The notes under the pieces: generated by a model
What the model saw: the letters and a program-made list of their open reading frames with translations, nothing else
Databases searched by the model: none
Told to the model about the DNA's origin: nothing
Program-made: the position numbers and the translations under genes
From: Xanthomonas campestris pv. campestris str. ATCC 33913
GTDB lineage: Bacteria > Pseudomonadota > Gammaproteobacteria > Xanthomonadales > Xanthomonadaceae
Length of the DNA stretch: 32,000 bases
Direction of reading: 5' to 3'
Assembly: GCF_000007145.1 (NCBI RefSeq)
Contig: NC_003902.1
Coordinates: 1,657,436-1,689,435, forward strand
Shown here: positions 3,189-32,000 of the stretch, piece after piece
Numbering within the stretch: the stretch's first letter is position 1
Layout of the letters: the number at the start of each line of letters is the position of its first letter

Positions 3189-3222
3189 GAGAAGAGCCGG
3201 CATTGCCGGCTCTTCTCGTTTA
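3189..3222 (+). terminator. Rho-independent terminator after the Gly-zipper gene
   Basis: Perfect 13-bp stem GAGAAGAGCCGGC / GCCGGCTCTTCTC (3189-3201 / 3205-3217), a 3-nt loop, then GTTTAT. Confidence 0.65.
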
Positions 3223-3328
3223 TGGGGACGCCGCGGCGCTGCCCGCGCGCAGAGCGCTCGCCTGTGGATGGCCGCCTGTGGACGGCGCAACTGGCAGATA
3301 ATCGCCGCATCCCACCTGGAGGCGCGCA

Positions 3329-19049: not shown

Positions 19050-22000
19050 ATGGACTTTTCCCGTTTTTTCATCGACCGACCGATCTTCGCGGCGGTGCTG
19101 TCGATCATCATCTTCGCGGCTGGCCTGATCGCCATGCCGCTGCTGCCCATCAGCGAATACCCCGAAGTGGTGCCGCCGAGCGTGCAGGTGCGTGCGGTGT
19201 ATCCGGGCGCCAATCCCAAGGTCATCGCCGAGACCGTCGCCACGCCGCTTGAGGAAGCCATCAACGGCGTGGAAAACATGATGTACATGAAGTCGGTCGC
19301 CGGCTCCGATGGCGTGCTGGTGGTCACCGTGACCTTCAAGCCGGGCACCGATCCGGACCAGGCGCAGGTGCAGGTGCAGAACCGCGTCAGTCAGGCGCAG
19401 GCGCGTCTGCCCGAGGACGTGCGGCGCCAGGGTGTGACCACGCAGAAGCAGTCGCCGACGCTGACCATGGTCGTGCATCTGACCTCCCCCAAGGGCAAGT
19501 ACGACTCGCTGTACCTGAGCAACTACGCCACCTTGAAGGTCAAGGACGAGCTGTCGCGCCTGCCGGGCGTGGGCCAGATCCAGATCTTCGGTGCCGGCGA
19601 TTACGCCATGCGGATCTGGCTGGATCCGGACAAGGTCGCCGCGCGCGGGCTCACCGCCAGCGATGTAGTGGCCGCCATCCGCGAGCAGAACGTGCAGGTG
19701 TCCGCCGGCCAGCTCGGCGCCGAGCCGATGCCGAACAAGAGCGAGTTCCTGCTGTCGATCAATGCACAGGGCCGCCTGACCACCGAAGAAGAATTCGGCA
19801 ACATCGTGATCCGCAGCGGTACCAGCGGCGAGATCGTGCGCCTGTCGGATGTGGCGCGGCTGGAACTGGGTGCCGGCAAGTACACGCTGCGCTCGCAACT
19901 GGACAGCAAGAGCGCGGTGGGCATGGGTGTCTTCCAGTCCCCGGGCGCCAATGCGATCGAGTTGTCCGATGCGGTGCGCGCCAAGATGGCGGAGCTGGAA
20001 AAACAGTTCCCGCAGGACATGGCCTGGTCGGCGGCCTACGACCCCACCATCTTCGTGCGCGATTCCATCAAGGCGGTGGTGAGCACCTTGCTGGAGGCGG
20101 TGCTGCTGGTGGTGCTGGTGGTGATCCTGTTCCTGCAGACCTGGCGTGCGTCGATCATTCCGTTGCTGGCGGTGCCGGTGTCGGTGGTGGGCACCTTCGC
20201 AGCGCTGTATGTGCTTGGCTTTTCGATCAATACGCTGACCCTGTTCGGCCTGGTGCTGGCGATCGGCATCGTGGTCGACGATGCGATCGTGGTGGTGGAA
20301 AACGTCGAGCGCAACATCGAAGAAGGTTTGAGCCCGCTGGCTGCTGCGCATCAGGCGATGCGCGAAGTGTCCGGGCCCATCATCGCCATCGCGCTGGTGT
20401 TGTGCGCGGTGTTCGTGCCGATGGCGTTCCTGTCGGGCGTGACCGGCCAGTTCTACAAGCAGTTCGCGGTGACCATCGCCATCTCCACGGTGATCTCGGC
20501 GATCAACTCGCTGACCCTGTCGCCTGCACTGGCAGCCATGCTGCTCAAGGCCCATGACGCCCCGAAGGATGGTCCGACGCGGTTGATCGACCGGTTGTTC
20601 GGCTGGATTTTTCGTCCGTTCAACCGCTTCTTCAACACCAGCTCGCACAAGTATCAGGGTGCGGTTTCGCGCGCGCTGGGCAAGCGCGGTATGGTCTTCA
20701 TGGTGTATCTGTTGCTGTTGGTCGGCACCGGGGTGATGTTCAAACTGGTGCCGGGCGGCTTCATTCCGACCCAGGACAAGTTGTACCTGATCGCCGGTGC
20801 CAAGCTGCCCGAAGGCGCATCGCTGGAGCGCACCAGCGAGGTGATCAGCCAGATCAGCGATATTGCGCTGCAGACCGAGGGCGTTGCGCACGCGGTGGCG
20901 TTTCCTGGCCTCAATCCACTGCAGTTCACCAATACGCCCAACACCGGCACCCTGTTCCTGACCCTCAAGCCCTTCAGCGAACGCAGCCGGACCGCAGCGC
21001 AGATCAATGCCGAGATCAACGCGCGCATCAGCCAGATCGAGAAGGGCTTCGCCTTCGCCTTCATGCCGCCGCCGATTCTTGGCTTGGGTCAAGGCTCCGG
21101 CTATTCGCTGTACATCCAGGATCGTGCCGGGCTCGGTTACGGGCAGTTGCAGACTGCGGTAACGGCGATGTCCGGTGCGATCTCGCAGACGCCGGGCATG
21201 CAGTTCCCGATCGGCACCTATCAGGCCAACGTGCCGCAGCTCGATGCAAAGGTCGATCGCGACAAGGCCAAGGCGCAGGGTGTGCCGCTGACCAATGTGT
21301 TCGACACGCTGCAGACCTATCTGGGGTCTGCGTACATCAACGACTTCAATCGCTTCGGTCGTACCTATCAGGTGATCGCCCAGGCCGATGGACAGTTCCG
21401 CGACAGCGTCGAAGACATCGCCAACCTGCGCACCCGCAACGATCGCGGGCAGATGGTGCCGATCGGCAGCATGGTCACGCTGGGCCAGACCTACGGCCCG
21501 GATCCGGTGATCCGCTACAACGGCTACCCGGCCGCCGATCTGATCGGTGAAGCGGACACGCGCGTGCTGTCGTCCGCCCAGGCGATGCAGACGCTGGCCG
21601 GCATGGCGCCGAAGGTGTTGCCCAACGGCATGAACATCGAGTGGACCGATCTGAGTTATCAGCAATCCATCCAGGGCAATTCGGCGTTGATCGTGTTCCC
21701 GATGGCGGTGTTGCTGGCGTTCCTGGTGCTGGCCGCGTTGTACGAAAGCTGGACCTTGCCGCTGGCGGTGATCCTGATCGTGCCGATGACCTTGCTGTCT
21801 GCCTTGTTCGGCGTATGGCTCACCGGTGGCGACAACAACGTGTTCGTGCAGGTGGGACTGGTGGTGTTGATGGGCCTGGCGTGCAAGAACGCGATCCTGA
21901 TCGTGGAGTTTGCCCGCGAACTGGAGATGCACGGCAAGGGCATCGTCGAAGCCGCGCTGGAAGCCTGCCGCCTGCGTCTGCGCCCGATCGTGATGACCTC

Positions 22001-22220
22001 CATCGCCTTCATCGCCGGCACCGTGCCGCTGGTGTTCGGCCATGGCGCTGGCGCAGAAGTGCGCTCGGTCACCGGCATCACCGTGTTCGCCGGCATGTTG
22101 GGCGTGACCCTGTTCGGCCTGTTCCTGACGCCGGTGTTCTACGTGGCCCTGCGCAAGTGGGTGACCCGTGGCGAACCCGCCGCACCGGCCGCCGTGGCAC
22201 ATGATCCGGTCAAGGCCTGA
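19050..22220 (+). CDS. RND multidrug efflux permease (HAE1 family), MexF/SmeW-like
   Basis: MDFSRFFIDRPIFAAVLSIIIF...PISEYPEVVPPSVQVRAVYPGANPKVIAETVATPLEEAINGVENMMYM is near-colinear with MexF as recalled. 1056 aa with 12-TM topology. The track start at 19005 is a short over-extension. Confidence 0.95.
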   Translation: MDFSRFFIDRPIFAAVLSIIIFAAGLIAMPLLPISEYPEVVPPSVQVRAVYPGANPKVIAETVATPLEEAINGVENMMYMKSVAGSDGVLVVTVTFKPGTDPDQAQVQVQNRVSQAQARLPEDVRRQGVTTQKQSPTLTMVVHLTSPKGKYDSLYLSNYATLKVKDELSRLPGVGQIQIFGAGDYAMRIWLDPDKVAARGLTASDVVAAIREQNVQVSAGQLGAEPMPNKSEFLLSINAQGRLTTEEEFGNIVIRSGTSGEIVRLSDVARLELGAGKYTLRSQLDSKSAVGMGVFQSPGANAIELSDAVRAKMAELEKQFPQDMAWSAAYDPTIFVRDSIKAVVSTLLEAVLLVVLVVILFLQTWRASIIPLLAVPVSVVGTFAALYVLGFSINTLTLFGLVLAIGIVVDDAIVVVENVERNIEEGLSPLAAAHQAMREVSGPIIAIALVLCAVFVPMAFLSGVTGQFYKQFAVTIAISTVISAINSLTLSPALAAMLLKAHDAPKDGPTRLIDRLFGWIFRPFNRFFNTSSHKYQGAVSRALGKRGMVFMVYLLLLVGTGVMFKLVPGGFIPTQDKLYLIAGAKLPEGASLERTSEVISQISDIALQTEGVAHAVAFPGLNPLQFTNTPNTGTLFLTLKPFSERSRTAAQINAEINARISQIEKGFAFAFMPPPILGLGQGSGYSLYIQDRAGLGYGQLQTAVTAMSGAISQTPGMQFPIGTYQANVPQLDAKVDRDKAKAQGVPLTNVFDTLQTYLGSAYINDFNRFGRTYQVIAQADGQFRDSVEDIANLRTRNDRGQMVPIGSMVTLGQTYGPDPVIRYNGYPAADLIGEADTRVLSSAQAMQTLAGMAPKVLPNGMNIEWTDLSYQQSIQGNSALIVFPMAVLLAFLVLAALYESWTLPLAVILIVPMTLLSALFGVWLTGGDNNVFVQVGLVVLMGLACKNAILIVEFARELEMHGKGIVEAALEACRLRLRPIVMTSIAFIAGTVPLVFGHGAGAEVRSVTGITVFAGMLGVTLFGLFLTPVFYVALRKWVTRGEPAAPAAVAHDPVKA

Positions 22221-22253
22221 TTCCTCTTCCCCCATCTTTGAAGGACATTGCAC

Positions 22254-22985
22254 ATGAGCACCAACAAGATCGCACTGGTCACCGGCGGTACCCGCGGCAT
22301 CGGCCTGGAGACCGTCCGTCAACTGGCCCAGGCCGGCGTGCACACGCTGCTGGCTGGCCGCAAGCGCGATGACGCCGTCGCCGCTGCACTCAAGCTGCAG
22401 GCCGAAGGCCTGCCGGTGGAAGCCATCCAGCTGGACGTCAACGACGACATCAGCATCGCCGCGGCCGTTGGCACGGTGGAGCAGCGTCACGGCCATCTGG
22501 ACATCCTGATCAACAACGCCGGCATCATGATCGAGGACATGCAGCGCAAGCCGTCCGAGCAGAGCCTGGACACCTGGAAGCGCACCTTCGACACCAACCT
22601 GTTTGCGGTGGTCGGCGTGACCAAGGCGTTCCTGCCGCTGCTGCGTCGTTCGCTGGCCGGGCGCATCGTCAACGTCTCCAGCATCCTCGGCTCGTTGACC
22701 CTGCACACACAGCAGGGCTCGCCGATCTATGACTTCAAGATACCTGCCTACGACGCCTCCAAGAGCGCACTCAACAGCTGGACCGTGCACCTGGCCCATG
22801 AGCTGCGCGAGAGCGCGATCAAGGTCAACATGGTGCATCCGGGCTATGTCAAAACCGACATGAACGGTGGCGTCGGCGAGATCGACGTGGAGCAGGGCGC
22901 ACACAGCAGCGTGCAGATGGCGTTGATCGATGCGCACGGCCCCAATGGCAGCTTCACCTACCTGGGCGAGGTGCTGCCATGGTGA
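22254..22985 (+). CDS. classical short-chain dehydrogenase/reductase (carbonyl-reductase-like), SmeU2-like position
   Basis: AAGGA 8 nt upstream of the ATG at 22254. Motifs TGGTRGIG, NNAG, the Ser of NVSS, and YDASK (YxxxK). Confidence 0.9.
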   Translation: MSTNKIALVTGGTRGIGLETVRQLAQAGVHTLLAGRKRDDAVAAALKLQAEGLPVEAIQLDVNDDISIAAAVGTVEQRHGHLDILINNAGIMIEDMQRKPSEQSLDTWKRTFDTNLFAVVGVTKAFLPLLRRSLAGRIVNVSSILGSLTLHTQQGSPIYDFKIPAYDASKSALNSWTVHLAHELRESAIKVNMVHPGYVKTDMNGGVGEIDVEQGAHSSVQMALIDAHGPNGSFTYLGEVLPW

Positions 22986-24403
22986 GGACCTTGCTGGGCG
23001 CCGCGCTTGCCGCGGCGATCCTGAGTGGTTGCGCGGTCGGGCCGGATTACCGCCCCGAACCGCCGGCCGCGGTGACGCTGCAAGGCGCGCAGGATGCGGC
23101 CTATAGCGCCGAGTCGCCGGTGGGCAACTGGTGGTCGCAGTTCGATGACCCGGTGCTGGAACAACTGGTGCGCGATGCGTTGTTCGCCAACCACGATCTG
23201 CGCATTGCCGTCTCGCGCGTCAAGCAGGCGCGTGCGGTGTTCGTCGAACGCCGGTTGGACCAGGCGCCGCACATCACCGCACAAGGCAGCTTTGATCGCC
23301 GCGAACAACAGCAGGTGATCGCCGGCAATCAGCGTTTCCTCACCGAGCAGACCACGCTGGGTCTGGATGCGGCGTGGGAACTGGATCTGTTCGGCCGCCA
23401 GCGGCGTGCGTCGGAGGCGGCGCGTGCCGACCTGGAAGCCGAGCAGGCCGGCCTGCAGGACGTGCAGGTCACGGTGGCCGCGGAGGTGGCGCGCAACTAT
23501 TTCGAATTGCGCGGCACGCAAAAGCAGCTGGACGTCTCCAAGCGCACCCTGACCAACCTGCGCGACACCCAGAAGCTGACGCAGACGCGTTGGGACCTGG
23601 GCGCCGGCAGCGAGCTGGATGTGCAGAGCAGCCTGGCACGCTTGAAGGCCATCGAAGCCGACATTCCGTTGCTGGAAACTGCCGAAGCGCAGTACCGCCA
23701 TCGGATCGCCGTGTTGCTCGGTCAACAGCCGAATGCGCTGGATGCCACCCTGGTGGCGCGCACCGCACCGCCGTTCGCCCGCGCCTTGCCGCTCGGCGAT
23801 ACCGCCAGCTTGCTGCGGCAACGCCCGGACGTGCGCACCGCCGAACGGCGTCTGGCTGCGGCCACCGCACAGGTGGGCGTGGCCACGGCCGATCTGTTCC
23901 CGCGCATCAGCGTGAGCGGCTTTGTCGGCTTTCTGTCTGGCGATGCGGCCAGGTTGACCCAGGGCAACGCAAAGGCCTGGTCGATCACGCCGTCGATCAG
24001 CTGGGCCGCGTTCGACTTCGGCACCGTACGTGCACGCCTGCGTGCCAGCAAGGCGCAGGCCGAAGGCGCGTTGGCGCAGTACCAGCAGACCGTGCTGCTG
24101 GCACTGGAAGATACCGAAAATGCCTTGACCGGCTACGGGCGTCAGCAGGCGCGCCTGGCGATCGTGGTGGACCAGGCCAATGCGGCGCGGCGTGCCGAGC
24201 AGCTGGCGCAGATCCGCTACCGCGAGGGTTCGGAAGACTTCCTGACCCTACTGGATGCACAGCGCACCCAACTGGCAGCCGACGATGCATTGGCGCAGGC
24301 CGAAGCAGCGGTCAATGTCGGCGTGGTCGGCGTCTACAAGGCGCTGGGTGGCTGGAAGCAAGGTGAGGCACCGGCCGCGCCGGTGGCAGTGGCCGAGCGC
24401 TGA
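22979..24403 (+). CDS. RND efflux outer-membrane factor lipoprotein (NodT family), OprN/SmeX-like
   Basis: The ATG at 22979 overlaps the SDR stop by 7 nt (ATGGTGA). Lipobox ILSGC followed by AVGPDY. Two TolC-like repeats, with YKALGGGW-like C-terminus (YKALGGWKQG). Confidence 0.9.
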   Translation: MVRTLLGAALAAAILSGCAVGPDYRPEPPAAVTLQGAQDAAYSAESPVGNWWSQFDDPVLEQLVRDALFANHDLRIAVSRVKQARAVFVERRLDQAPHITAQGSFDRREQQQVIAGNQRFLTEQTTLGLDAAWELDLFGRQRRASEAARADLEAEQAGLQDVQVTVAAEVARNYFELRGTQKQLDVSKRTLTNLRDTQKLTQTRWDLGAGSELDVQSSLARLKAIEADIPLLETAEAQYRHRIAVLLGQQPNALDATLVARTAPPFARALPLGDTASLLRQRPDVRTAERRLAAATAQVGVATADLFPRISVSGFVGFLSGDAARLTQGNAKAWSITPSISWAAFDFGTVRARLRASKAQAEGALAQYQQTVLLALEDTENALTGYGRQQARLAIVVDQANAARRAEQLAQIRYREGSEDFLTLLDAQRTQLAADDALAQAEAAVNVGVVGVYKALGGWKQGEAPAAPVAVAER

Positions 24404-24410
24404 GATGGCA

Positions 24411-24488
24411 GGGCGGGGCGGCCGCGCGGCCGTCCCGCCCATGCATGCACGACGGTATCAATCGCTGATCGGCAATTGCCGATCAGCG
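24411..24488. terminator. two hairpins between convergent genes (probable bidirectional termination region)
   Basis: Hairpin 1: GGGCGGGGCGGCC / GGCCGTCCCGCCC (24411-24440, one mismatch). Hairpin 2: a perfect 26-nt palindrome CGCTGATCGGCAATTGCCGATCAGCG (24463-24488). No strong T-runs. Confidence 0.5.
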
Positions 24489-24497
24489 CTGGATGAC

Positions 24498-25568
24498 TCA
24501 GTCGGCGATGCGCACGCTGTCGCGGCCGCCGTTCTTGGCCAGATACAGCGCCGCATCCGCACGCGAAAACCAGTCTTGCCAGTGCGTTTCGCCATCGTGG
24601 CGGGCCGCGCCCAGCGACACGGTGATGCGTCCGCCCGGCCCACGTAATCCGTTGCGGATCACCTTGCGCAAGCGCTCGGTGGCCGCTTCCAGTTCCGCCA
24701 GCGAGCCGGCGCGCAGCAGCACTACGAATTCTTCGCCGCCGAAGCGGAACACCTGATAGGGCTCACGCACCTCGAACCGCAGGATCGTGGCCAGGTCAGC
24801 CAATGCCGCATCGCCGGCGGCATGCCCGTACAGATCGTTGACGTCCTTGAAGTGGTCCAGGTCCAGGATGATCAGGCTGTTGAGCCGATCCTGCGGCTGA
24901 CGTTGATCGATCTGATGGGTGAGCGCGCGCTCGAGCATGCGCCGGTTGGGCAGGCCGGTCAGCGCATCCAGCGAGGCCAGTTCTTCCAGATGCACGCGGT
25001 CGTCCTGCATGCGCACCGAGAACGCGTAGCCCACCGCCAGCGTCACCAAGGTGACCATCACGGTGGAGATGCCCTGGCCAGGGCTGACGATCAAGCCGGG
25101 CAGCAACAGCAAGGCCGCCAGCAACGGCAGGCTCAGCAACACCGCGCGCTGCGGGCCGCAGAGAAAATAATTGGTGGCCAGCACCGGGAACAACCAGGGC
25201 AGGGCGCCGTCGCCGCCGCTCCAGCAGCCGATCAGGCAGCCAGCGACATTGATGGAGGCCAGCCACACCCCGCCGCGTCCAGTGCGCTCGGCACTGCGCA
25301 TGCGCCAGCCACGCCACACCGCGACCAGGCCGAGTGCGGCAGTCAACGCACATGCCACCCCTTGGCCATGCATGGCCAGGTACACCGCGTACAGGCAGAG
25401 CAACAGCGCGGTGATCGGCCCGAGCATCTTGACGATGCCGAGGCGGAAATCCCGCCGCAAATGGAGGATCACGGGCGAAGTTCTGGAGGAGTCGGCATCA
25501 GTATCGGCCGACGCGTGCGAAAGTTGAGGGAAGGTGGCGCGCGCCGGCAGCGCATCGTGCGTGCGCAA
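24498..25568 (-). CDS. membrane-anchored GGDEF-domain diguanylate cyclase
   Basis: Several N-terminal TM helices, then LDALTGLPNRR, DLDHFKDVND.YGH..GD and the GGEEF motif (FRFGGEEFVVLL). The start is uncertain: TTG at 25568 is the longest, and the first ATG at 25427 is the alternative. Confidence 0.85.
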   Translation of the reverse strand: MRTHDALPARATFPQLSHASADTDADSSRTSPVILHLRRDFRLGIVKMLGPITALLLCLYAVYLAMHGQGVACALTAALGLVAVWRGWRMRSAERTGRGGVWLASINVAGCLIGCWSGGDGALPWLFPVLATNYFLCGPQRAVLLSLPLLAALLLLPGLIVSPGQGISTVMVTLVTLAVGYAFSVRMQDDRVHLEELASLDALTGLPNRRMLERALTHQIDQRQPQDRLNSLIILDLDHFKDVNDLYGHAAGDAALADLATILRFEVREPYQVFRFGGEEFVVLLRAGSLAELEAATERLRKVIRNGLRGPGGRITVSLGAARHDGETHWQDWFSRADAALYLAKNGGRDSVRIAD

Positions 25569-25721
25569 CGTTGGTCAGATGCCGCTACGGCGCACAACGC
25601 TGATCAGCACGTACCTCGGCGCGCCGCAGCCGATCAGATGCCGCATCCCACACGCGCTGTACGGTTTCGCAGATCCTTGACGGCATAGCCGCAACCTTGG
25701 GGCTTTGCCGTGGAGTCACCG

Positions 25722-25955
25722 ATGCCTAATCGCTCAGAGTTGGATGCGCACCTGGATGCGCTGCAGGACGCACTGCCGAACGTGGCGTCCGATGAAGACG
25801 CCGACTTCGATTATCTGGATTTCCAGGCCCGCGCCGAGGCCGTCCTGCACAGCGCCGCACCCGAAGACGCCGCGCATGTGCGTGGCCGCATCGACGACAT
25901 GCTGGCCAGCGCCGGGCTGATCCCGACCGACGACAACGGGCAGGCCTGTCGCTGA
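25722..25955 (+). CDS. small acidic hypothetical protein
   Basis: 77 aa from the ATG at 25722 (the track uses GTG at 25710). Third codon positions are G/C-rich throughout, and the protein is rich in Asp and Glu. No family was recognised. Confidence 0.45.
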   Translation: MPNRSELDAHLDALQDALPNVASDEDADFDYLDFQARAEAVLHSAAPEDAAHVRGRIDDMLASAGLIPTDDNGQACR

Positions 25956-25971
25956 CAGCACGGGCCTGGCG

Positions 25972-27669
25972 TCACACGCTGCCCGGCGTCACCGCGCTGA
26001 CCACCTGATTGCGCCCGGCCTGCTTGGCCCGATACAGCGCCTCGTCGGCCTTGCGCAGCAACTGCGCGGCGTTGCCTGCATGCCCGGGAAAGGTCGCGAC
26101 GCCGAACGAGGCGGTGATCTTGGGCAGTGACACGCCATCGGCCATTACCTGCAGGCCATCGATGCCGGCGCGTAATTTCTCCGCCATCGCGCTGGCGGTG
26201 GCCAGGTCGACCTCGGGCAGGATGATGGTCAGTTCCTCGCCGCCGTAGCGGCAGCAGATGTCTTCGCCGCGGGTCTGCGCCAGCAGCAGTTCGCCGATCG
26301 CAGCAAGCACGCGGTCGCCGCCACTGTGGCCATGCAGGTCGTTGAATTGCTTGAAATGGTCCACGTCCAGCATCAGCACCGACAGTGGCTGCACGCGTCG
26401 GGTGCAGCGCGACAGCTCGTGGTTGAGCGCTTCTTCCAGATAGCGGCGGTTGAACAGGCCGGTCAGCGGGTCACGGATGGATTGCTGGCGCAGCGTCTCG
26501 CGCAGGCGCAGGTTGTGCAGCGCCAACGACAATTGTTCGGCGGCCGCCTCGGCCACGGTCAGCGAGGCCAGTTCCTGCGCGTTGTCGCCGCGCAGCGCGA
26601 GCATGCCCAGCTGGGTGCCCTGTGCCGACAATGGAATGCAGACCGTGCTCGCATGCGGCGGAAGATTGACGCCGGCATGCTGGCAGACCATGCCTACGCT
26701 GGCGTCCTCCACCAGGTGAGTGCGGTCGCGTCGCAGTGCCCAGCACTCTTCGGGCGCGATGCTCCCGCGTTCGCCATCGGCCAGCGTTCCCCACGCCGCC
26801 ACCTGCTCGGCGCGATCGCGCGAGGCGCGCAGCAGATACACCGCGCCCGACACACCGGGCACCAGCGGGGCGATCGTGCGCGCCGTGATTTCCAGGGCTT
26901 CTTCCGCGTTGCGGCAGTTCTGCAGCAGGCCCGAATAGCGCGCCAGCGCTTCCAATCCTGCCGAGGTGCGTTCCAACGTGCTGAACGATTCGGCCAGCCG
27001 CGTGCTGCTCGTGCTGGCTTCTTCCTCGGCACGCACACGGCGGGCCAATTCGCGCGACAACAGCCGGTAGGCCAGCACCATGACCAATAGCCCGGACAAA
27101 ATGCCGATCGCCGTCATCCACAGCACCCAGCGCGCGCTGTCGTGGTTGGCCTGGGTGCGCGACACCAGCTGCCGGCGCTCCAGTTCGCCCATCAGTTGCA
27201 CCTGCCGGCGCAGCGCCGAAGAGGTCTGGAACACGCCCTTGGCGATGGAGGCGCGCGCGCCATCCAGCCCGGTGGCGCGATAGCTGTGCAATAGGTCGTT
27301 GATCTGCACCAGGCGCATGTCCACCAGCTTGTCCAGCGCGGCCACGTTGCGCAGTTGCAGGGGGTTGTCCTGCACCAACACCTCAAGCCGTGCAATGCGC
27401 CCGGGCAGGCGCCCGATGGCGTCGGCATGCACGCCCAGAAAGGCCTCGTTGTCGGTCAGCACGAAGCCACGCGCCGACGACTCCGCCGACAGCAGCCCGG
27501 CCTGGATCTCGTCGATGCTGGCAATGACTTCCTGCGTATGCGAGACCCACGCGGCCGCCGTCAGCGACTGCCGCGAGGTGATGTAGCCACCGACGCCGAT
27601 CAACACAAAGATCAGCCCGCCGAGCATCAAGGCCCCGGCGGCGTGGCGTTTTGCTTTTCTGGTCAACAC
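25972..27669 (-). CDS. CHASE3 - TM - GAF - GGDEF sensor diguanylate cyclase
   Basis: A periplasmic CHASE3-like region (WVSHTQEVIASIDEIQAGLLSAESSARGFVLT...) lies between two TM helices, followed by a GAF-like region and then DPLTGLFNRR, DVDHFKQFND.HGH..GD and RYGGEEL. The start is ambiguous: GTG at 27669 after GGGGA is preferred, TTG at 27711 is the longest, and there is also an ATG at 27627. Confidence 0.85.
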   Translation of the reverse strand: MLTRKAKRHAAGALMLGGLIFVLIGVGGYITSRQSLTAAAWVSHTQEVIASIDEIQAGLLSAESSARGFVLTDNEAFLGVHADAIGRLPGRIARLEVLVQDNPLQLRNVAALDKLVDMRLVQINDLLHSYRATGLDGARASIAKGVFQTSSALRRQVQLMGELERRQLVSRTQANHDSARWVLWMTAIGILSGLLVMVLAYRLLSRELARRVRAEEEASTSSTRLAESFSTLERTSAGLEALARYSGLLQNCRNAEEALEITARTIAPLVPGVSGAVYLLRASRDRAEQVAAWGTLADGERGSIAPEECWALRRDRTHLVEDASVGMVCQHAGVNLPPHASTVCIPLSAQGTQLGMLALRGDNAQELASLTVAEAAAEQLSLALHNLRLRETLRQQSIRDPLTGLFNRRYLEEALNHELSRCTRRVQPLSVLMLDVDHFKQFNDLHGHSGGDRVLAAIGELLLAQTRGEDICCRYGGEELTIILPEVDLATASAMAEKLRAGIDGLQVMADGVSLPKITASFGVATFPGHAGNAAQLLRKADEALYRAKQAGRNQVVSAVTPGSV

Positions 27670-27814
27670 CGTGTTCCCCAAACAACGATCGTCTGGTCGA
27701 GTCCGATGCAAGCGCCGTGCCTATGCTTCACTTCGCTTGCCCGGTGGCGGCACGGGGTCGCCTGCGCGCGGAGGCGGCGGTATCCTTGTGGCGAGTCATT
27801 GAGCCGAGCACGCG

Positions 27815-28057
27815 TTGGTCATTTTTCTTGGGCGTTACCAGTTGTCGTGCAATGCGCTGCCGCACCCTGCCCAAGGGTGGCGCGCGGACTGGCGCATCCA
27901 GCAGGTGGGTGCATCCAAGGCCGGCGATCTGGCTCGCGGCGAGCTCTCGCCCCTGTTTACCGACCACCGCAGCGCCATGTCCGCCGCCCGTGCCGCCGGC
28001 ATGGTGATCCTGGAAGCCATGCACGCCGACGCCCAGCGGCAGCTCGAATACGCCTGA
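27815..28057 (+). CDS. hypothetical protein or gene remnant
   Basis: The last ~66 codons have about 85% G/C at third positions by hand count, which is coding-like. The first ~14 codons do not. There is no in-frame ATG in the first ~50 codons (TTG or GTG candidates only) and no recognisable family. Confidence 0.3.
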   Translation: MVIFLGRYQLSCNALPHPAQGWRADWRIQQVGASKAGDLARGELSPLFTDHRSAMSAARAAGMVILEAMHADAQRQLEYA

Positions 28058-28358
28058 GCACTGGCATCGCTTCTCGCCCACGCCGCCTGAATTCCAAGGC
28101 CTTCGGCGTTCGATCTCGGGCCGACGCGATTAAAGGCCGGCTGGCGAGGCCGGGCTTGGGAGGTCATGTCGCCCGCCTTGACGGTGTCGGCGCACGGGCC
28201 AAACTGGCGGTGAAGATTCCCTTTTTGACTTGCTCTAGCAAGCTGCCTGCCGAGCGCATATTGCCTGCCGGCAGGCATGCGTGTTCTGCGAACACACTGG
28301 CACGCCACTTGCTGCTGTCTCTCTACGAGCGCTGGGGAGCGCGCCAAAGAGAGCAGGA

Positions 28359-28529
28359 ATGGAAGAGCACACCAAACAGGCCTTCGTCATGCTGCGACAG
28401 GAAGCCACCGAATTGCTGGCCCTGTTCGACCGCCTATGCTGCGATACCGCGCCAGCGACCCCGATGCAGGGCAATGAGGTCGAGCCGGTCCGCGCGCATC
28501 CGCCACAGACCGGTGACGTCACTCTCTGA
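28359..28529 (+). CDS. small hypothetical protein (56 aa)
   Basis: ATG at 28359 preceded by GAGCAGGA. MEEHTKQAFVMLRQEATELLALFDRL... Codon bias is moderately G/C3-rich. No family was recognised, and it may be non-coding. Confidence 0.3.
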   Translation: MEEHTKQAFVMLRQEATELLALFDRLCCDTAPATPMQGNEVEPVRAHPPQTGDVTL

Positions 28530-28595
28530 CGCGCTGCGTCCACTGTCGGGCTGGGCGAGACGCATCACGGTCATGTTGTGGTGATCTGCTGTGCC

Positions 28596-28622
28596 GCCAC
28601 TGCCACTGCCACTGCCACTGCC
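28596..28622. repeat. hexanucleotide microsatellite (GCCACT)x4 plus a partial copy
   Basis: Four perfect copies plus GCC, counted by hand. They generate the artefactual QWQWQWQW ORF on the minus strand. Confidence 0.9.
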
Positions 28623-28785
28623 CGTGCCGGCGCCGGCGCTTCGCGCTACCGCCCGCTAACGAGGCGGCACTGTAAACACTCGTGAGCAAGCAGGGCGGCG
28701 CTGCACAAAGCCCAGGTACCGGGACCTTCTTGCTGACCGGCGTGACCTGCACGGCAGCACTCTCCAAACGCCCAACACCGCACAT

Positions 28786-28824
28786 GAAAAAGGCCAGTCG
28801 TCTCTCTCGAGAACGCCTGGCCTT
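28786..28824 (-). terminator. Rho-independent terminator on the minus strand (orphan terminator of the displaced RNA-gene 3' end)
   Basis: The minus strand reads AAGGCCAGGCGTTCTCGAGAGAGACGACTGGCCTTTTTCA. The outer stem AAGGCCAG/CTGGCCTT has additional inner pairing and is followed by a T-run. It lies 25 nt downstream (minus sense) of the ...CCACCTCCACCA fragment. Confidence 0.6.
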
Positions 28825-28849
28825 AGTCGGTCGTCTTAGGACCGTTGTT

Positions 28850-28866
28850 TGGTGGAGGTGGGGTCT
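28850..28866 (-). other. 3'-terminal fragment of a tmRNA (ssrA) or tRNA-Ala-type gene: probable island att repeat
   Basis: The minus strand reads AGACCCCACCTCCACCA: acceptor strand CACCTCC, discriminator A, then CCA. This pairs with 5'-GGGGGTG including a G3:U70 pair, the alanine identity element used by tmRNA. No T-loop or remaining gene body lies upstream, so it is a fragment only. Confidence 0.55.
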
Positions 28867-29301
28867 ACCAAAAAATAACGATAAAATACTGATATTAAAG
28901 ATAATTTAATTTTCTTCTGTAGGAATGCCCCCAAATATGCCCCTGGAAAAATATAACGATGAATCGACATTTGGCTGGCTCACGCTGGTCTAAACGCTCT
29001 GAGTTGCGCAATTGGCGCCTCGCAATCCTGATCTCGCTTCCATCCAGGATGTCCGAGCGCACGACACAGGAGGATGGGAGGTTCAGGAGTCTAGCCATCT
29101 AGCCTTGTGGTCAGACATACTTCCCCAACGCTTGGGGAAGCTGCGGGATTGATCGTAGCTGGGCGTTGATAAGGGCCTAAAAGTGAAAGGACTCGTCATT
29201 GACGAACCGTGGATCTCATTGATCCTGAGTGGCCAGAAGACCTGGGAGATGCGCTCCCGCGCAACGTCCATTCGTGGTCGCATCGCGTTAATCAAAAAGG
29301 G

Positions 29302-29310
29302 ATCCGGAAC
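29302..29310. repeat. target-site duplication, left copy (ATCCGGAAC)
   Basis: Identical 9-mer directly abutting both IS ends (29302-29310 and 30661-30669). Confidence 0.85.
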
Positions 29311-30660
29311 CTGAGGTTTCCCCACATTTCCTCCTGGCAAATCAATCACTTGCGACGTAATTGCCTGGAAGAAAGTGCGCGCATGGCGCAATCTTCAAGG
29401 TGACTAAGCCAGAGAAGGTTGACGACCATGCGCGCCAGCGAAGTATTGCAGAAGTGCCTGCCCAACTCACTGTCCGGGATGCATGCGTTGCGCGAACGCG
29501 CGTTGCTGCATGCGGTCGAGGCGTTGTTGCACGGACGCAGGCTGACACTGATGGACATCGCACGTTCGTGGCCGAGCGCACTGCGGGTGCGCGCGCCGCT
29601 CAAGGCAGTTGATCGCCTGTTGAGTAATCGCAATTTGCAGGTCGAGCGATCAGTGATCGACCACGAGATGGCGCACTGGCTGCTGCGCGGCGCGCAGCCG
29701 GTAATCGTCATCGACTGGAGCGATCTGAAGCCAGACAAATCGTGGTGTCTGCTGCGCGCAGCGGTGCCGGTGGGCGGCCGCACGCTTACCTTGCTGGACA
29801 TGGTAGTGCCAGGAAAGCAGCAGGGATCGCCTGGTGCAGAAAGACGCTTCTTGCAACAACTGAGGGCACTGGTTCCGGACGATGTTCGCCCGATCCTGGT
29901 CACTGACGCCGGCTTCCGGACACCGTGGTTCCGCGCTGTATCGGCCATGGGCTGGTGTTGGGTTGGGCGACTGCGCGGGCGCACGCAAGTCAAGCCGCAG
30001 GACGTGCGGGATGAAGCAGATCAGTGGATCGACAGCCGGAAACTGCATGTGTTGGCGTCCAATCGTGCATGCGAGTTACCGCCGATGCAGGCCAATCGCA
30101 GCGATCCACTCGATTGCAGGTTGGTGATTTACGCCAAGGCACGGCAAGGGCGCAAACAGTGCAATCGCCGCTCACCCGCCAAAGTCTCGCGTGCGTCATC
30201 GAGTCTGAAGGCCGCAGCGCGCGAGCGCGAGCCTTGGCTCATCGTTGCATCCCCGCAGCTGCAGGCGCCCAGCGCAAAGCAGTTGGTCAATGTGTACGCA
30301 CGACGGATGCAGATCGAGCTTGCATTTCGCGATCTGAAATCACATCGCTACGGCCAGGCGCTGGAAGACAGTTTGACCCGACGCGGCGAGCGACTGCAGA
30401 TCCTGCTGCTGATCAATACGTTGGCTGCATTCGCCAGCTGGTTGGCGGGGCTGGGATGCGAAGCGACCGGTATCGCCCAGTGGCTGTCTCCTCGCAACAG
30501 CACACGCAAGCTTTACTCCACGCTACGCATCGGCCGAGAAGCGCTGGTCAGGCAGTGGCCGATGGAACCCGTCTCACGGTGGATAGGGCGCTTGCGCGCA
30601 CTGCCTGCGGCAGTGCGCGAGCAGATGACGCTTACGGTGTAAAACGTGGGGATACCTTAG
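29311..30660 (+). mobile_element. IS4-family, IS10-like insertion sequence (1350 bp), apparently intact
   Basis: Terminal inverted repeats CTGAGGTTTCCCCACATTT (left) and CTAAGGTATCCCCACGTTT (right, reverse complement) match at 16 of 19 positions and resemble the IS10 ends (CTGAGAGATCCCC...). A single 404-aa transposase ORF fills the element, which is flanked by a 9-bp TSD as for IS10. Confidence 0.9.
29428..30642 (+). CDS. IS4-family (IS10-like) DDE transposase
   Basis: ATG at 29428 after GAGAAGG. Colinear with the IS10 transposase as recalled: LTL..I.R..P......LK..DRLL.N..L..ER, VIVIDWSDL, VTDAGFRTPWF, GW.W.GR.RG and QLVN.Y..RMQIE..FRDLKS..YG (YREK region). Confidence 0.9.
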   Translation: MRASEVLQKCLPNSLSGMHALRERALLHAVEALLHGRRLTLMDIARSWPSALRVRAPLKAVDRLLSNRNLQVERSVIDHEMAHWLLRGAQPVIVIDWSDLKPDKSWCLLRAAVPVGGRTLTLLDMVVPGKQQGSPGAERRFLQQLRALVPDDVRPILVTDAGFRTPWFRAVSAMGWCWVGRLRGRTQVKPQDVRDEADQWIDSRKLHVLASNRACELPPMQANRSDPLDCRLVIYAKARQGRKQCNRRSPAKVSRASSSLKAAAREREPWLIVASPQLQAPSAKQLVNVYARRMQIELAFRDLKSHRYGQALEDSLTRRGERLQILLLINTLAAFASWLAGLGCEATGIAQWLSPRNSTRKLYSTLRIGREALVRQWPMEPVSRWIGRLRALPAAVREQMTLTV

Positions 30661-30669
30661 ATCCGGAAC
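30661..30669. repeat. target-site duplication, right copy (ATCCGGAAC)
   Basis: See the left copy. The sequences are identical. Confidence 0.85.
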
Positions 30670-31277
30670 CATCGTCGGCGTTGCTGATTTGGTTGACTGC
30701 ATCGGCCCCTTCGACGCCACTGCCTGGCGCGCACACGCCGACAAACACTGTATTCCCATAGAGCGCGAAGAGCTGGCCATGCGCTGGAACGTCGCTTGGG
30801 CGCTTAGTAGGGCGACTCCACTGGCGCGATCGGTCAGCTACGACCATCCTTCCGGTGCTGTTACGTGGGTCAATCTCGACGATGAGGTTGTGGCCCAACT
30901 CCAGCTTGGTGCCAGCCATCTCAAGATTCCTCAGAAGCTGCCGTTAACCCTAGGAACGAACCTCCAGCCTAAGAATCTGCCGGAGCAGCGATTCACACTT
31001 GAAGATGCGGGCGCGGTGCCTATTGGCGTATTGATACCGGTCGCCAGTGATGGCACGTGGTTCTCGCCCGATTTGAAGAGAGGGCGCGGGTACACCATCT
31101 GCGCCAAGGGTGAGGAGATTGTGGTGGAGAGCTATCTAGAAGCTCTCTCGCAACTTCGCCTGATTCCTAAGCCGCGCTGGCGGAGACCAAATGCCGGTGG
31201 CAACTGGGGAATCATGACTGGGGTGAAGTGGGAAGACGCCAGTAAGTTGACAAGCTAATACAGGGGATTTAGAAGAA

Positions 31278-32000
31278 ATGAACGTGCTTTGGATCGCGGC
31301 GACTGGCGATTGGCTACATGCTCTGATTGCGTCGATCATCGCAGTCCTTTTTCTCTGTTTTCTCTTCTTTGTCTTGTTCCGGGCGAGCGCGCTTCTGGTG
31401 TCATTGAAGCGACTCGGTAATGCTGTTCGGCTGCTGACAGGGAAATCGCCCCCCCTCGTCAAGCGGGAACTCAGCAAGCTCTTTGCCAACAGTCGCCTCC
31501 AGCCGAACTGGGCCGAGTACGAGGACACGTTGCATGAGCAGACCGCCAATCAAGGTATTGATCGAGAAATCGTAGCCGTTCGTGCAACCGTCCCCGCAGA
31601 ATCGTTCTTCAATGCGGAGCTGGTGGTTGATAGCACGCTGCACACAGAGTTCTTCAAGCATCTTCCTGGGATTTTTACCGGGCTCGGAATCATCGCGACC
31701 TTCAGTGGGCTCATTGCAGGCTTACAAAGCTTCGACGTCAAGGCGGTAGAGCCGGACGCGCTGAAAGCAAGTCTCGGCGGTCTTTTCGGCCACGTTGGCA
31801 GTGCGTTTCTTCTTTCTGCGGTTGCTATTGGTCTCGCGATGATCTGCACGATCGTCGAAAAAATCCTCTATGCAGCAAACGTGCATGCGATCACGTCGAT
31901 CGCGCTGGCGCTGGATGGTCTTTTCAAGTCTGGTGTCGGCGAGGAATACCTTTCCAAATTGGTGAGGTCTTCTGAAGATGGTGCTGTACAGACAAAGCAG
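31278..32000 (+). CDS. MotA/TolQ/ExbB-type proton-channel protein, ZorA-like; 5' part only (runs off the right edge)
   Basis: ATG at 31278, 241 codons with no stop to the window end (hand-translated, absent from the track). TM1 is LHALIASIIAVLFLCFLFFVLF, followed by a ~90-aa soluble insert. Then FFKHLPGIFTGLGIIATFSGLIAGL and GGLFGHVGSAFLLSAVAIGLAMICTIVEKIL (MotA/ExbB channel signature), then LFKSGVGEEYLSKLVRSSEDG and onward. Confidence 0.7.
   Translation, partial: MNVLWIAATGDWLHALIASIIAVLFLCFLFFVLFRASALLVSLKRLGNAVRLLTGKSPPLVKRELSKLFANSRLQPNWAEYEDTLHEQTANQGIDREIVAVRATVPAESFFNAELVVDSTLHTEFFKHLPGIFTGLGIIATFSGLIAGLQSFDVKAVEPDALKASLGGLFGHVGSAFLLSAVAIGLAMICTIVEKILYAANVHAITSIALALDGLFKSGVGEEYLSKLVRSSEDGAVQTKQ

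What the first reader, a model, noticed from the sequence alone, without database searches (positions are those of the whole stretch)
28786..29182. Genomic-island boundary: orphan tmRNA/tRNA-Ala 3' end plus its terminator, then an abrupt GC collapse
**Seen in the sequence**
- The minus strand at 28850-28866 reads ..CCCCACCTCCACCA, a complete acceptor 3' strand plus discriminator A plus CCA of an alanine-type stem (it pairs with GGGGGTG and has a G3:U70 pair).
- The bases that should hold the T-loop are instead AAAAAATAACGATAAAATACTG.
- A hairpin plus T-run terminator lies 25 nt further along the minus strand (28786-28824), as expected downstream of the original RNA gene.
- G+C in 28861-28920 is 14 of 60 by hand count, against about 45 of 60 in a core line (8041-8100).
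- Everything to the right stays AT-richer and holds an IS and defence-like genes.

**Established knowledge**
- ssrA and tRNA 3' ends are classical integrase attachment sites. Integration duplicates the 3' segment, leaving a fragment at the island's far end.

**Inference**
- The island extends rightwards from ~28867.
- The intact RNA gene and an integrase should lie at its other end, outside the window.
Basis: partly seen in the sequence, partly recalled or inferred. Interest (0 to 1): 0.65.

Follow-up and report, generated by a model that had tools for sequence, protein, structure and literature searches.

The report
Displaced tmRNA-gene end marking island boundary
The short tRNA-like sequence is the original last 13 bases of the tmRNA gene (ssrA) of Xanthomonas campestris, pushed 24.6 kb from the rest of the gene by two mobile islands that inserted one after the other; this is a textbook genomic-island boundary in a variable region that is already catalogued.

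Summary
The window is Xanthomonas campestris CP155931.1.

- **The fragment.** The minus-strand CCCACCTCCACCA at 28850-28862 is the displaced native 3' end of ssrA. It is 13 nt, not 14-17, and it comes from the tmRNA gene, not tRNA-Ala.
- **Its flank.** It is still followed by the native 25-nt flank and the ssrA terminator (28785-28824).
- **Empty-site alleles.** At least 13 conspecific contigs, and Xanthomonas sp. Leaf131, have an intact tmRNA gene abutting exactly this flank. Homology to them stops at window 28862.
- **The intact gene.** I extended the window's own genome. The intact 397-nt tmRNA gene lies on the same strand at window-equivalent 53460-53856.
- **Two tandem islands lie between.**
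  - Island B (28863-44257, GC 56%) holds an ASCH gene split by an IS4 element, a type I Zorya system (zorABCD), IS5, IS3, DUF6216, and a 203-codon remnant of a 510-aa integrase.
  - A 33-nt ssrA copy follows at 44258-44290.
  - Island A (44291-53459) holds an intact 382-aa tyrosine integrase, an excisionase and a CyRepA1 replication protein.
- **Prior knowledge.** The region matches XVR20 of strain 8004 (He et al. 2007). The tDNA-plus-fragment signature is the Islander principle.

Verdict: ordinary and already known. Low interest.

The parts
28785..28824 (-). Native rho-independent terminator of ssrA. The stem is AAGGCCAG...CTGGCCTT at 28790-28824, followed by a T-run. It is now separated from the gene.
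   Evidence: Read directly. The fold gives -32.4 kcal/mol, z = -3.8. A hairpin and T-run at the same position follow the intact tmRNA gene in the empty-site alleles L015 and L102. The stem and T-run are conserved; the interior differs in L015.
28825..28849 (-). Native 25-nt 3' flank of ssrA (AACAACGGTCCTAAGACGACCGACT).
   Evidence: It is identical to the sequence directly after CCA of the intact tmRNA gene in L015, L105, L107 and L109. L102 and L103 differ by one base.
28850..28862 (-). Displaced original 3' end of the tmRNA gene (ssrA''), 13 nt, CCCACCTCCACCA. It consists of the last 2 nt of the T-stem, the 7-nt acceptor 3' strand, discriminator A and CCA. It is the attR core of the oldest integration.
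   Evidence: The common suffix with the genome's intact ssrA is 13 nt. blastn homology to empty-site X. campestris alleles ends at 28862. ARAGORN and Rfam find no gene here.
28863..28935 (.). Island-side arm of the junction. GC is 25-33% in 60-nt windows here. It replaces the ssrA T-arm and is probably the former attP arm of the island.
   Evidence: Composition. It has no homology to empty-site alleles. It is identical in all seven fetched X. campestris loci that carry this junction (L001-L006, L111) and in L120 and L128. The attP-arm role is inferred.
28863..32000 (.). Left 3.1 kb of island B. The island runs to window-equivalent 44257, is 15,395 bp long and has GC 56.2%.
   Evidence: Assembly of the window with L128 and L134, all from CP155931.1 with identical overlaps.
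29183..29311 (+). 5' part of a 238-aa ASCH-domain gene, interrupted by the IS.
   Evidence: Pfam ASCH, E = 1.4e-5. The uninterrupted 238-aa gene is present in L121, L123, L124 and L126.
29312..30659 (+). IS4-family insertion sequence, 1,348 bp, with a transposase of 404-407 aa. The 11-bp target duplication GATCCGGAACC lies at 29301-29311 and 30660-30670.
   Evidence: NCBIfam transpos_IS4_2, 358 bits. Boundaries and target duplication come from alignment to the IS-free allele L121.
30660..31258 (+). 3' part of the ASCH-domain gene.
   Evidence: It is 100% identical to the IS-free allele and in the same frame.
31279..32000 (+). 5' part of zorA, the first gene of a type I Zorya anti-phage system. 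zorB, zorC and zorD continue beyond the window.
   Evidence: PADLOC scores on the full proteins from the same genome (L003): ZorA1 1099.7 bits, ZorB1 305.6, ZorC1 592.8, ZorD1 1243.1.

Best explanation
The feature is the far junction (attR) of site-specific integration into the 3' end of the tmRNA gene ssrA in Xanthomonas campestris.

**First integration.** A mobile island with a tyrosine integrase recombined with ssrA at the junction between T-stem and acceptor stem. Its attP carried a copy of the last 13 nt or more of the gene, so ssrA was regenerated. The original 13 nt, with their native flank and terminator, were displaced to the far side of the island at 28850-28862.

**Second integration.** A second element carrying integrase, excisionase and a CyRepA1 replication protein later integrated into the regenerated ssrA, at the T-loop site. 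This displaced a 33-nt copy together with the first island. The new element supplies a new terminator for ssrA.

**Resulting order on the minus strand:**
1. ssrA (window-equivalent 53856-53460)
2. island A (9.2 kb)
3. ssrA' (33 nt)
4. island B (15.4 kb, carrying Zorya)
5. ssrA'' (13 nt)
6. native terminator
7. the CHASE3-GAF-GGDEF gene

**Decay of island B.** Island B has since decayed. Its integrase is cut at codon 203. An IS4 element splits the ASCH gene, and IS5 and IS3 copies are present. It is therefore probably fixed in place.

**Shown and inferred.** Shown: the anatomy, the empty-site alleles, the repeats, the integrases and the composition. Inferred: the order of events, the crossover positions, and the loss of mobility.
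For: - **Source.** Window 25504-32000 is byte-identical to CP155931.1 (L128). Window 20779-32000 is 100% identical to L003, from the same record.
- **Intact gene in the same genome.**
  - ARAGORN finds a tmRNA gene at L134 9471-9867 on the minus strand, with tag ANDDNYGSDFAIAA.
  - Rfam RF00023 scores 195 bits.
  - This places the gene at window-equivalent 53460-53856.
- **Direct repeats, same orientation.** There are 13 nt at 28850 and 33 nt at 44258.
- **Empty sites.**
  - In X. campestris L102 (plus 9 similar places), L103, L105 (plus 1 similar place), L107 and L109, and in Xanthomonas sp. Leaf131 (L015), the intact tmRNA gene directly abuts the same flank and terminator.
  - The same neighbouring genes follow.
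  - Window 19346-28862 aligns to L102 1-9483 at 98.0%, and the alignment stops 13 nt inside ssrA.
- **Integrases.**
  - The 382-aa Phage_integrase gene lies at window-equivalent 44435-45583, next to an excisionase and CyRepA1.
  - Codons 1-203 of the 510-aa integrase, at 95% identity, lie 108 bp after ssrA'.
  - The intact 510-aa gene occupies that position in strain B100 (L117) and in L113.
  - It lies directly after the intact ssrA in L100, and a shorter gene call of it (415 aa) does so in L101.
- **Composition.** Core 66.5% and 65.7%, island B 56.2%, island A 61.6%.
- **Hotspot.** X. campestris and its relatives show at least four different island arms after ssrA.
- **Principle.** An island's attP restores the tDNA, and the displaced fragment marks the island's end. 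tmRNA is the most enriched target, and tandem arrays are recognised (PMC4383910).
Against: - The identity block is short (13 nt) and would be unconvincing on its own. The case rests on synteny and on the empty-site alleles.
- The island-side arm next to the 13-nt copy (...GGTAGACC) differs from the arm seen in islands that still carry the intact 510-aa integrase (...GTTTACAGGCTCCGC, 17-nt identity).
- The element that made this junction may therefore not be the one whose integrase remnant survives.
- No excision product or circular form was observed.
- No attP of a free element was recovered.
Confidence: 0.95

Rival explanations
1. Island B is not one element. It is a fusion of two older tandem islands: a Zorya/ASCH island that created the 13-nt junction, and a separate island of the 510-aa-integrase type. 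The ssrA copy between them, and the first island's integrase, would have been lost in the deletion that also truncated the 510-aa integrase. This refines the main explanation rather than contradicting it.
For: - The attR arm in the window (...TTTTTTGGTAGACC) differs completely from the conserved attR arm of islands that carry the intact 510-aa integrase, namely L101, L094 and X. euvesicatoria L013.
- The window's arm shares GGTAGA with the orphan junctions in X. arboricola L007 and X. hortorum L008, whose cargo is unrelated.
- The integrase is cut at codon 203, exactly where the DUF6216 segment begins.
Against: - No third ssrA copy exists inside island B.
- GGTAGA is only 6 nt and could be chance.
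- The outer arms of attP can diverge between elements that share an integrase.
Confidence: 0.4
2. The fragment derives from a tRNA-Ala gene rather than from tmRNA.
Against: - In empty-site alleles the gene that abuts this exact flank is a 397-nt tmRNA gene with a tag reading frame (ARAGORN; Rfam RF00023).
- No tRNA gene lies in the window or in the loci that were scanned.
Confidence: 0.01
3. The match is a chance tRNA-like 13/14-mer next to an unrelated terminator and an AT-rich intergenic stretch. There was no integration event.
For: Thirteen nucleotides is short. ARAGORN and Rfam report nothing here.
Against: - Expected chance occurrences of the 14-mer in the window are 0.00.
- The 25-nt flank is identical to what follows the intact ssrA in conspecific strains, and the terminator stem and T-run are conserved there.
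- Orientation and order relative to the intact gene are as integration requires.
Confidence: 0.01
4. The fragment is what remains after ssrA was deleted or rearranged by IS activity, and not a duplication made by site-specific integration.
For: The region is rich in IS elements: IS4, IS5 and IS3. IS-mediated deletions are visible in sister strains (L001, L132).
Against: - The genome keeps one intact ssrA.
- The 13 nt and the 33 nt are extra, directly repeated copies of its 3' end.
- Each copy sits exactly at a boundary between blocks of different composition, and one is beside an integrase gene.
- No IS end lies at 28863. The nearest IS starts at 29312.
Confidence: 0.03

Closest known systems
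tDNA-integrated genomic islands as defined by Islander (Williams 2002; Hudson, Lau and Williams 2015, PMC4383910), including tandem arrays at ssrA ('Traffic at the tmRNA gene', Williams 2003; listed in PMC4383910's reference list, not readable here)
   Same: - An intact tmRNA gene is followed by directly repeated 3' fragments downstream.
- Tyrosine integrases lie inside the interval.
- The newer island lies next to the intact gene.
- The two fragment lengths fit two of the three described crossover sublocations: 13 nt for the T-stem/acceptor junction and 33 nt for the T-loop.
   Different: - The oldest island has lost its integrase's catalytic half.
- Its 13-nt fragment is at the short end of what such searches detect.
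- The intact 382-aa integrase sits beside the displaced fragment rather than beside the intact gene.
XVR20, a variable genomic region of X. campestris pv. campestris 8004 (He et al. 2007, Genome Biol 8:R218, PMC2246292)
   Same: - It is the same locus and gene set.
- XVR20 spans 3332308-3356903, is 24,596 bp and has GC 58.5%. [quoted passage not shown]
- It lies wholly between the 8004 tmRNA gene and the 13-nt copy. The gene is at L110 17108-17504, which I convert to about 3330960-3331356. The copy is at 3357469-3357480.
- The paper reports it present in 8004 and ATCC 33913 and absent or highly divergent in all Chinese strains tested.
   Different: - In the passages I read, the paper does not link XVR20 to the tmRNA gene.
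- It does not resolve the region into two tandem islands.
- It does not identify the helicase cluster as Zorya, which was named in 2018.
CP4-57 and other P4-type islands at ssrA of Escherichia coli (from my own knowledge, not tested here)
   Same: The target gene is the same. The 3' end is duplicated and a tyrosine integrase is present.
   Different: The host and integrase families differ. In CP4-57 the integrase lies directly downstream of the intact ssrA, as the 510-aa integrase does here in strains L100 and L101. Island A has the opposite layout.
Type I Zorya anti-phage system (Doron et al. 2018; PADLOC models)
   Same: All four proteins, ZorA, ZorB, ZorC and ZorD, match type I models over full length and in the canonical order.
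   Different: Nothing unusual was seen. An ASCH-domain gene lies 20 bp upstream of zorA and is IS-disrupted in this strain.

Membership tests
tDNA/tmRNA-integrated genomic island (Islander signature) | An intact tRNA or tmRNA gene in the same replicon. | tested here: met
   The tmRNA gene lies at window-equivalent 53460-53856 on the minus strand in CP155931.1 (ARAGORN; Rfam 195 bits).
tDNA/tmRNA-integrated genomic island (Islander signature) | A terminal 3' fragment of that gene, in the same orientation, downstream of it. | tested here: met
   There are 13 nt at 28850-28862 and 33 nt at 44258-44290. Both are on the minus strand and both are exact suffixes of the gene.
tDNA/tmRNA-integrated genomic island (Islander signature) | A tyrosine integrase gene within the interval. 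| tested here: met
   Island A has an intact 382-aa Phage_integrase. Island B has only a 203-codon N-terminal remnant of a 510-aa integrase.
tDNA/tmRNA-integrated genomic island (Islander signature) | An empty-site allele (attB) in related genomes, with the gene abutting the same flank. | tested here: met
   L102 (plus 9 similar places), L103, L105, L107, L109 and L015.
tDNA/tmRNA-integrated genomic island (Islander signature) | Composition that differs from the core genome. | tested here: met
   GC is 56.2% and 61.6% in the islands, against 66.5% and 65.7% in the core.
tDNA/tmRNA-integrated genomic island (Islander signature) | Ability to excise and integrate (an active element). | not testable with these tools
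   This needs a PCR or read-level search for attP and attB junctions. Island B's truncated integrase argues against autonomous mobility.
Tandem island array | [quoted passage not shown] | tested here: met
   Island A has the 33-nt copy and the 382-aa integrase. Island B has the 13-nt copy and an integrase remnant. Island B meets the integrase criterion only as a pseudogene.
Type I Zorya (island cargo) | ZorA, ZorB, ZorC and ZorD are all present and adjacent. | tested here: met
   All four have PADLOC type I hits, each the top hit for its protein and spanning nearly the whole model. Only the first 240 codons of zorA lie inside the window.
tRNA-Ala gene fragment | The source gene is a tRNA-Ala gene. 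| tested here: not met
   The gene abutting this flank in empty-site alleles is tmRNA.

The most novel reading that the evidence does not exclude
The ssrA locus of Xanthomonas may be a genus-wide hotspot where anti-phage defence cargo is exchanged. The cargo seen here includes Zorya, methyltransferases, DUF3800/DUF6119/DUF7380 gene sets and a CyRepA1 satellite-like element. At least three integrase lineages appear to use different sublocations of the same 33 nt. One of them would work with an identity segment of only 13-17 nt at the extreme 3' end. Older islands would be trapped and eroded as newer ones insert. None of this is new in kind, but a systematic description for Xanthomonas may not exist.
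Probability: 0.3. Interest if true: 0.3.

Novelty: already known. Interest (0 to 1): 0.15.

Why it matters
It gives base-precise limits (28863 to window-equivalent 53459) for a 24.6-kb accessory region of a crop pathogen. It shows that the Zorya defence system of reference X. campestris pv. campestris strains arrived on an island integrated at ssrA. It also shows that part of the region, island A, still has what it needs to move, while island B does not. This is useful for annotation and for strain typing. It does not change what is understood about how islands integrate.

Tried and rejected
- **ARAGORN and Rfam on the window** found no tRNA or tmRNA, not even at E up to 10 in 27500-32000. A 13-nt piece is below detection, so these tools could not decide the question.
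- **First exact-protein look-up.** The 189-aa ORF with a TTG start gave nothing, and a mis-framed range gave an error. The ATG-start version worked.
- **The single genome-contig scan** did not return the X. campestris representative, only other species. Those still supplied the first empty site.
- **The homolog search with the 382-aa integrase** did not return its own cluster; the best hit was 82% identical. Its 90% cluster is headed by an RfbA sequence. That search was wasted for walking along the genome.
Going through the listing of cluster members ids worked.
- **Several S8-peptidase variants** (P0011, P0121, P0128, P0123, P0133) led to other strains before P0330 reached the window's genome. 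They were useful as a survey of the locus.
- **Williams 2003** could not be read, and one phrase search was malformed.
- **Rejected readings:** a tRNA-Ala origin, a chance match, and an IS-made deletion remnant (see the rival explanations).

Full report
**1. What is in the sequence**

The plus strand at 28850-28863 is TGGTGGAGGTGGGG, so the minus strand reads CCCCACCTCCACCA. The 14-mer occurs once in the window, with 0.00 expected in 100 shuffles.

On the minus strand it is followed by 25 nt (AACAACGGTCCTAAGACGACCGACT). A hairpin then follows, AAGGCCAG...CTGGCCTT at 28824-28790, with a T-run. The 91-nt stretch folds at -32.4 kcal/mol, z = -3.8.

Upstream on the minus strand, where a T-arm should be, the sequence is TTATTTTTTGGTAGAC. 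GC is 0.25 in 28860-28919. In 500-nt windows from 28501 to 32000, GC is 0.54-0.64, against about 0.66-0.70 for most of the core. ARAGORN and Rfam report no RNA gene here.

**2. Where the window comes from**

An exact-protein look-up placed the window in Xanthomonas campestris. Window 20779-32000 is 100% identical to CP155931.1 (L003). Window 25504-32000 is byte-identical to a second piece of the same record (L128).

**3. The empty site**

The neighbouring CHASE3-GAF-GGDEF gene (25972-27627, minus strand) served as an anchor in other species.

- **Other species.**
  - In Xanthomonas sp. Leaf131 an intact 397-nt tmRNA gene lies about 630 bp from the start of the ORF holding that gene's orthologue.
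  - It is followed by exactly the same 31 nt, then a hairpin and T-run terminator with the same stem ends.
- **Within X. campestris.**
  - The same empty arrangement occurs in L102 (plus 9 similar places), L103, L105 (plus 1 similar place), L107 and L109.
  - That is at least 13 contigs (L102 plus 9 similar places, L103, and L105 plus 1 similar place), besides two loci too short to show the neighbouring genes (L107, L109).
- **Where homology stops.**
  - Window 19346-28862 aligns to L102 1-9483 at 98.0%.
  - The alignment stops 13 nt inside the tmRNA gene.
  - So the true fragment is CCCACCTCCACCA at 28850-28862, and base 28863 is island DNA.

The source gene is tmRNA, not tRNA-Ala.

**4. The other end, in the window's own genome**

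I walked along the genome with exact-protein look-ups. This gave L128 (CP155931.1 1680943-1704140) and L134 (1699429-1721888). Their overlaps with the window and with each other are identical.

In window-equivalent coordinates the locus reads:

| Feature | Coordinates | Notes |
|---|---|---|
| ssrA'' | 28850-28862 | 13-nt copy |
| island B | 28863-44257 | 15,395 bp, GC 56.2% |
| ssrA' | 44258-44290 | 33-nt copy, CGGACGGCGGTTCGATTCCGCCCACCTCCACCA |
| island A | 44291-53459 | 9,169 bp, GC 61.6% |
| intact tmRNA gene | 53460-53856 | minus strand; ARAGORN, Rfam RF00023 195 bits |

The core on either side has GC 66.5% and 65.7%.

**5. Contents of the islands**

Island B holds, in order:
- a 238-aa ASCH-domain gene, split by a 1,348-bp IS4-family element with an 11-bp target duplication;
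- zorA, zorB, zorC and zorD of a type I Zorya system, with top PADLOC hits of 1100, 306, 593 and 1243 bits;
- IS5-like and IS3 elements, a 237-aa ORF and a DUF6216 gene;
- codons 1-203 of a 510-aa tyrosine integrase, 108 bp after ssrA', at 95% identity to the intact gene of strain B100.

That integrase is intact and in the same position in B100 (L117) and in L113. It lies directly after the intact ssrA in L100, and a shorter gene call of it (415 aa) does so in L101.

Island A holds a 382-aa tyrosine integrase beside ssrA', an excisionase-family HTH protein, a 1,187-aa CyRepA1-family replication protein and small ORFs. Directly after the CCA of the intact gene, island A supplies a new hairpin and T-run (AAACCCCTGATTTATCAGGGGTTTTTTT).

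**6. Mechanism**

This is the standard signature of integration into a tDNA. The island's attP carries a copy of the gene's 3' part, so the gene is restored and the original 3' part is displaced to the island's far end. tmRNA is the most enriched target, and tandem arrays are recognised (PMC4383910).

In a tandem array the newest element lies next to the intact gene. Island B therefore came first and island A second; this order is inferred.

The 13-nt and 33-nt copies fit two of the described crossover sublocations: the T-stem/acceptor junction and the T-loop. The assignment is inferred from the lengths of identity only.

Island B has probably lost autonomous mobility, because its integrase lacks the catalytic half. 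Island A looks complete.

**7. An open detail**

The island arm beside the 13-nt copy (...GGTAGACC) is unlike the arm of islands that keep the 510-aa integrase (...GTTTACAGGCTCCGC, 17-nt identity; L101, L094, L013). It shares GGTAGA with the orphan junctions in X. arboricola and X. hortorum, whose cargo is unrelated.

Island B may therefore be two older islands fused by a deletion. I put this at about 0.4.

**8. The locus is a hotspot**

Across X. campestris strains and related species, ssrA is followed either by the native flank or by at least four other arms. The cargos differ: DUF7380/DUF3800/DUF6119 sets, conjugation or mobilisation genes, and methyltransferases. Secondary IS-mediated deletions are also visible.

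**9. Comparison with what is known**

The same genes are present in strains ATCC 33913, 8004 and B100 (accessions; loci).

[quoted passage not shown] The paper reports it absent or highly divergent in all Chinese strains tested (PMC2246292).

The 13-nt copy lies at 3357469-3357480 in strain 8004. The tmRNA gene is at L110 17108-17504, which I convert to about 3330960-3331356. In the passages I read, the paper does not tie XVR20 to the tmRNA gene or split it into two islands.

**10. Verdict**

The refinements are:
- the source is tmRNA;
- the fragment is 13 nt;
- there are two tandem islands;
- the integrase of the older island is truncated.

The feature is a well-understood kind of boundary in an already catalogued variable region. 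Interest is low.

Noticed in passing
window 29183-31258: A 238-aa ASCH-domain gene ends 20 bp upstream of zorA, on the same strand. It is split here by an IS4 element (29312-30659, 11-bp target duplication) but is intact in other strains (L121, L123, L124, L126). It has no PADLOC hit. Whether it is an accessory to Zorya is unknown.
   Followed up: partly
window 28863-28869, compared with L007 8900-8913, L008 668-681, L101 about 3206-3225 (minus strand) and L013 6514-6533: The island arm beside the 13-nt ssrA copy (GGTAGAC) differs from the arm of islands that carry the intact 510-aa integrase. It resembles orphan junctions in X. arboricola and X. hortorum. Island B may be a fusion of two older islands.
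   Followed up: partly
window about 28594-28620: A short hexamer tandem repeat, GCCACT x4 (gccactgccactgccactgccact), lies in the intergenic DNA between the GGDEF gene and the ssrA terminator. It could be a variable-number repeat.
   Followed up: no
L134 9440-9470 (window-equivalent about 53430-53459): Island A supplies its own hairpin and T-run directly after the CCA of the regenerated tmRNA gene. ssrA is therefore now terminated by island DNA, while the native terminator sits unused 24.6 kb away.
   Followed up: partly
L001 10500-12200; L006 10500-12700; L132 5780-6800: Sister strains show further erosion. One has an IS3 copy inside zorA (L006). One has a deletion from zorA to DUF6216 (L001). 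One has a deletion that joins the ASCH gene to the right part of island A (L132).
   Followed up: partly
protein cluster of L001 13175-14323: In the 90% identity protein clustering, the 382-aa integrase shares a cluster with glucose-1-phosphate thymidylyltransferase RfbA sequences, and the representative is an RfbA. This looks like a database artefact. It explains why the homolog search did not return the integrase's own cluster.
   Followed up: no
L001 9713-9814 (equivalent to window 29381-30592): In HG752432.1 the IS4 element is represented only by about 68 bp from each end plus about 100 bp between them. This is either a miniature derivative of the IS or an assembly collapse.
   Followed up: no
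L007 3825-8143: In X. arboricola pv. populi the island next to the orphan ssrA fragment carries a C-5 cytosine methylase and an N6/N4 methylase. This is different defence-like cargo at the same site.
   Followed up: partly
L100 2523-4284 (CP155988.1): In one X. campestris strain a further 444-aa integrase and an H-NS-like gene, flanked by inverted IS5 copies, lie inside the ssrA-linked island. This suggests a nested insertion.
   Followed up: no
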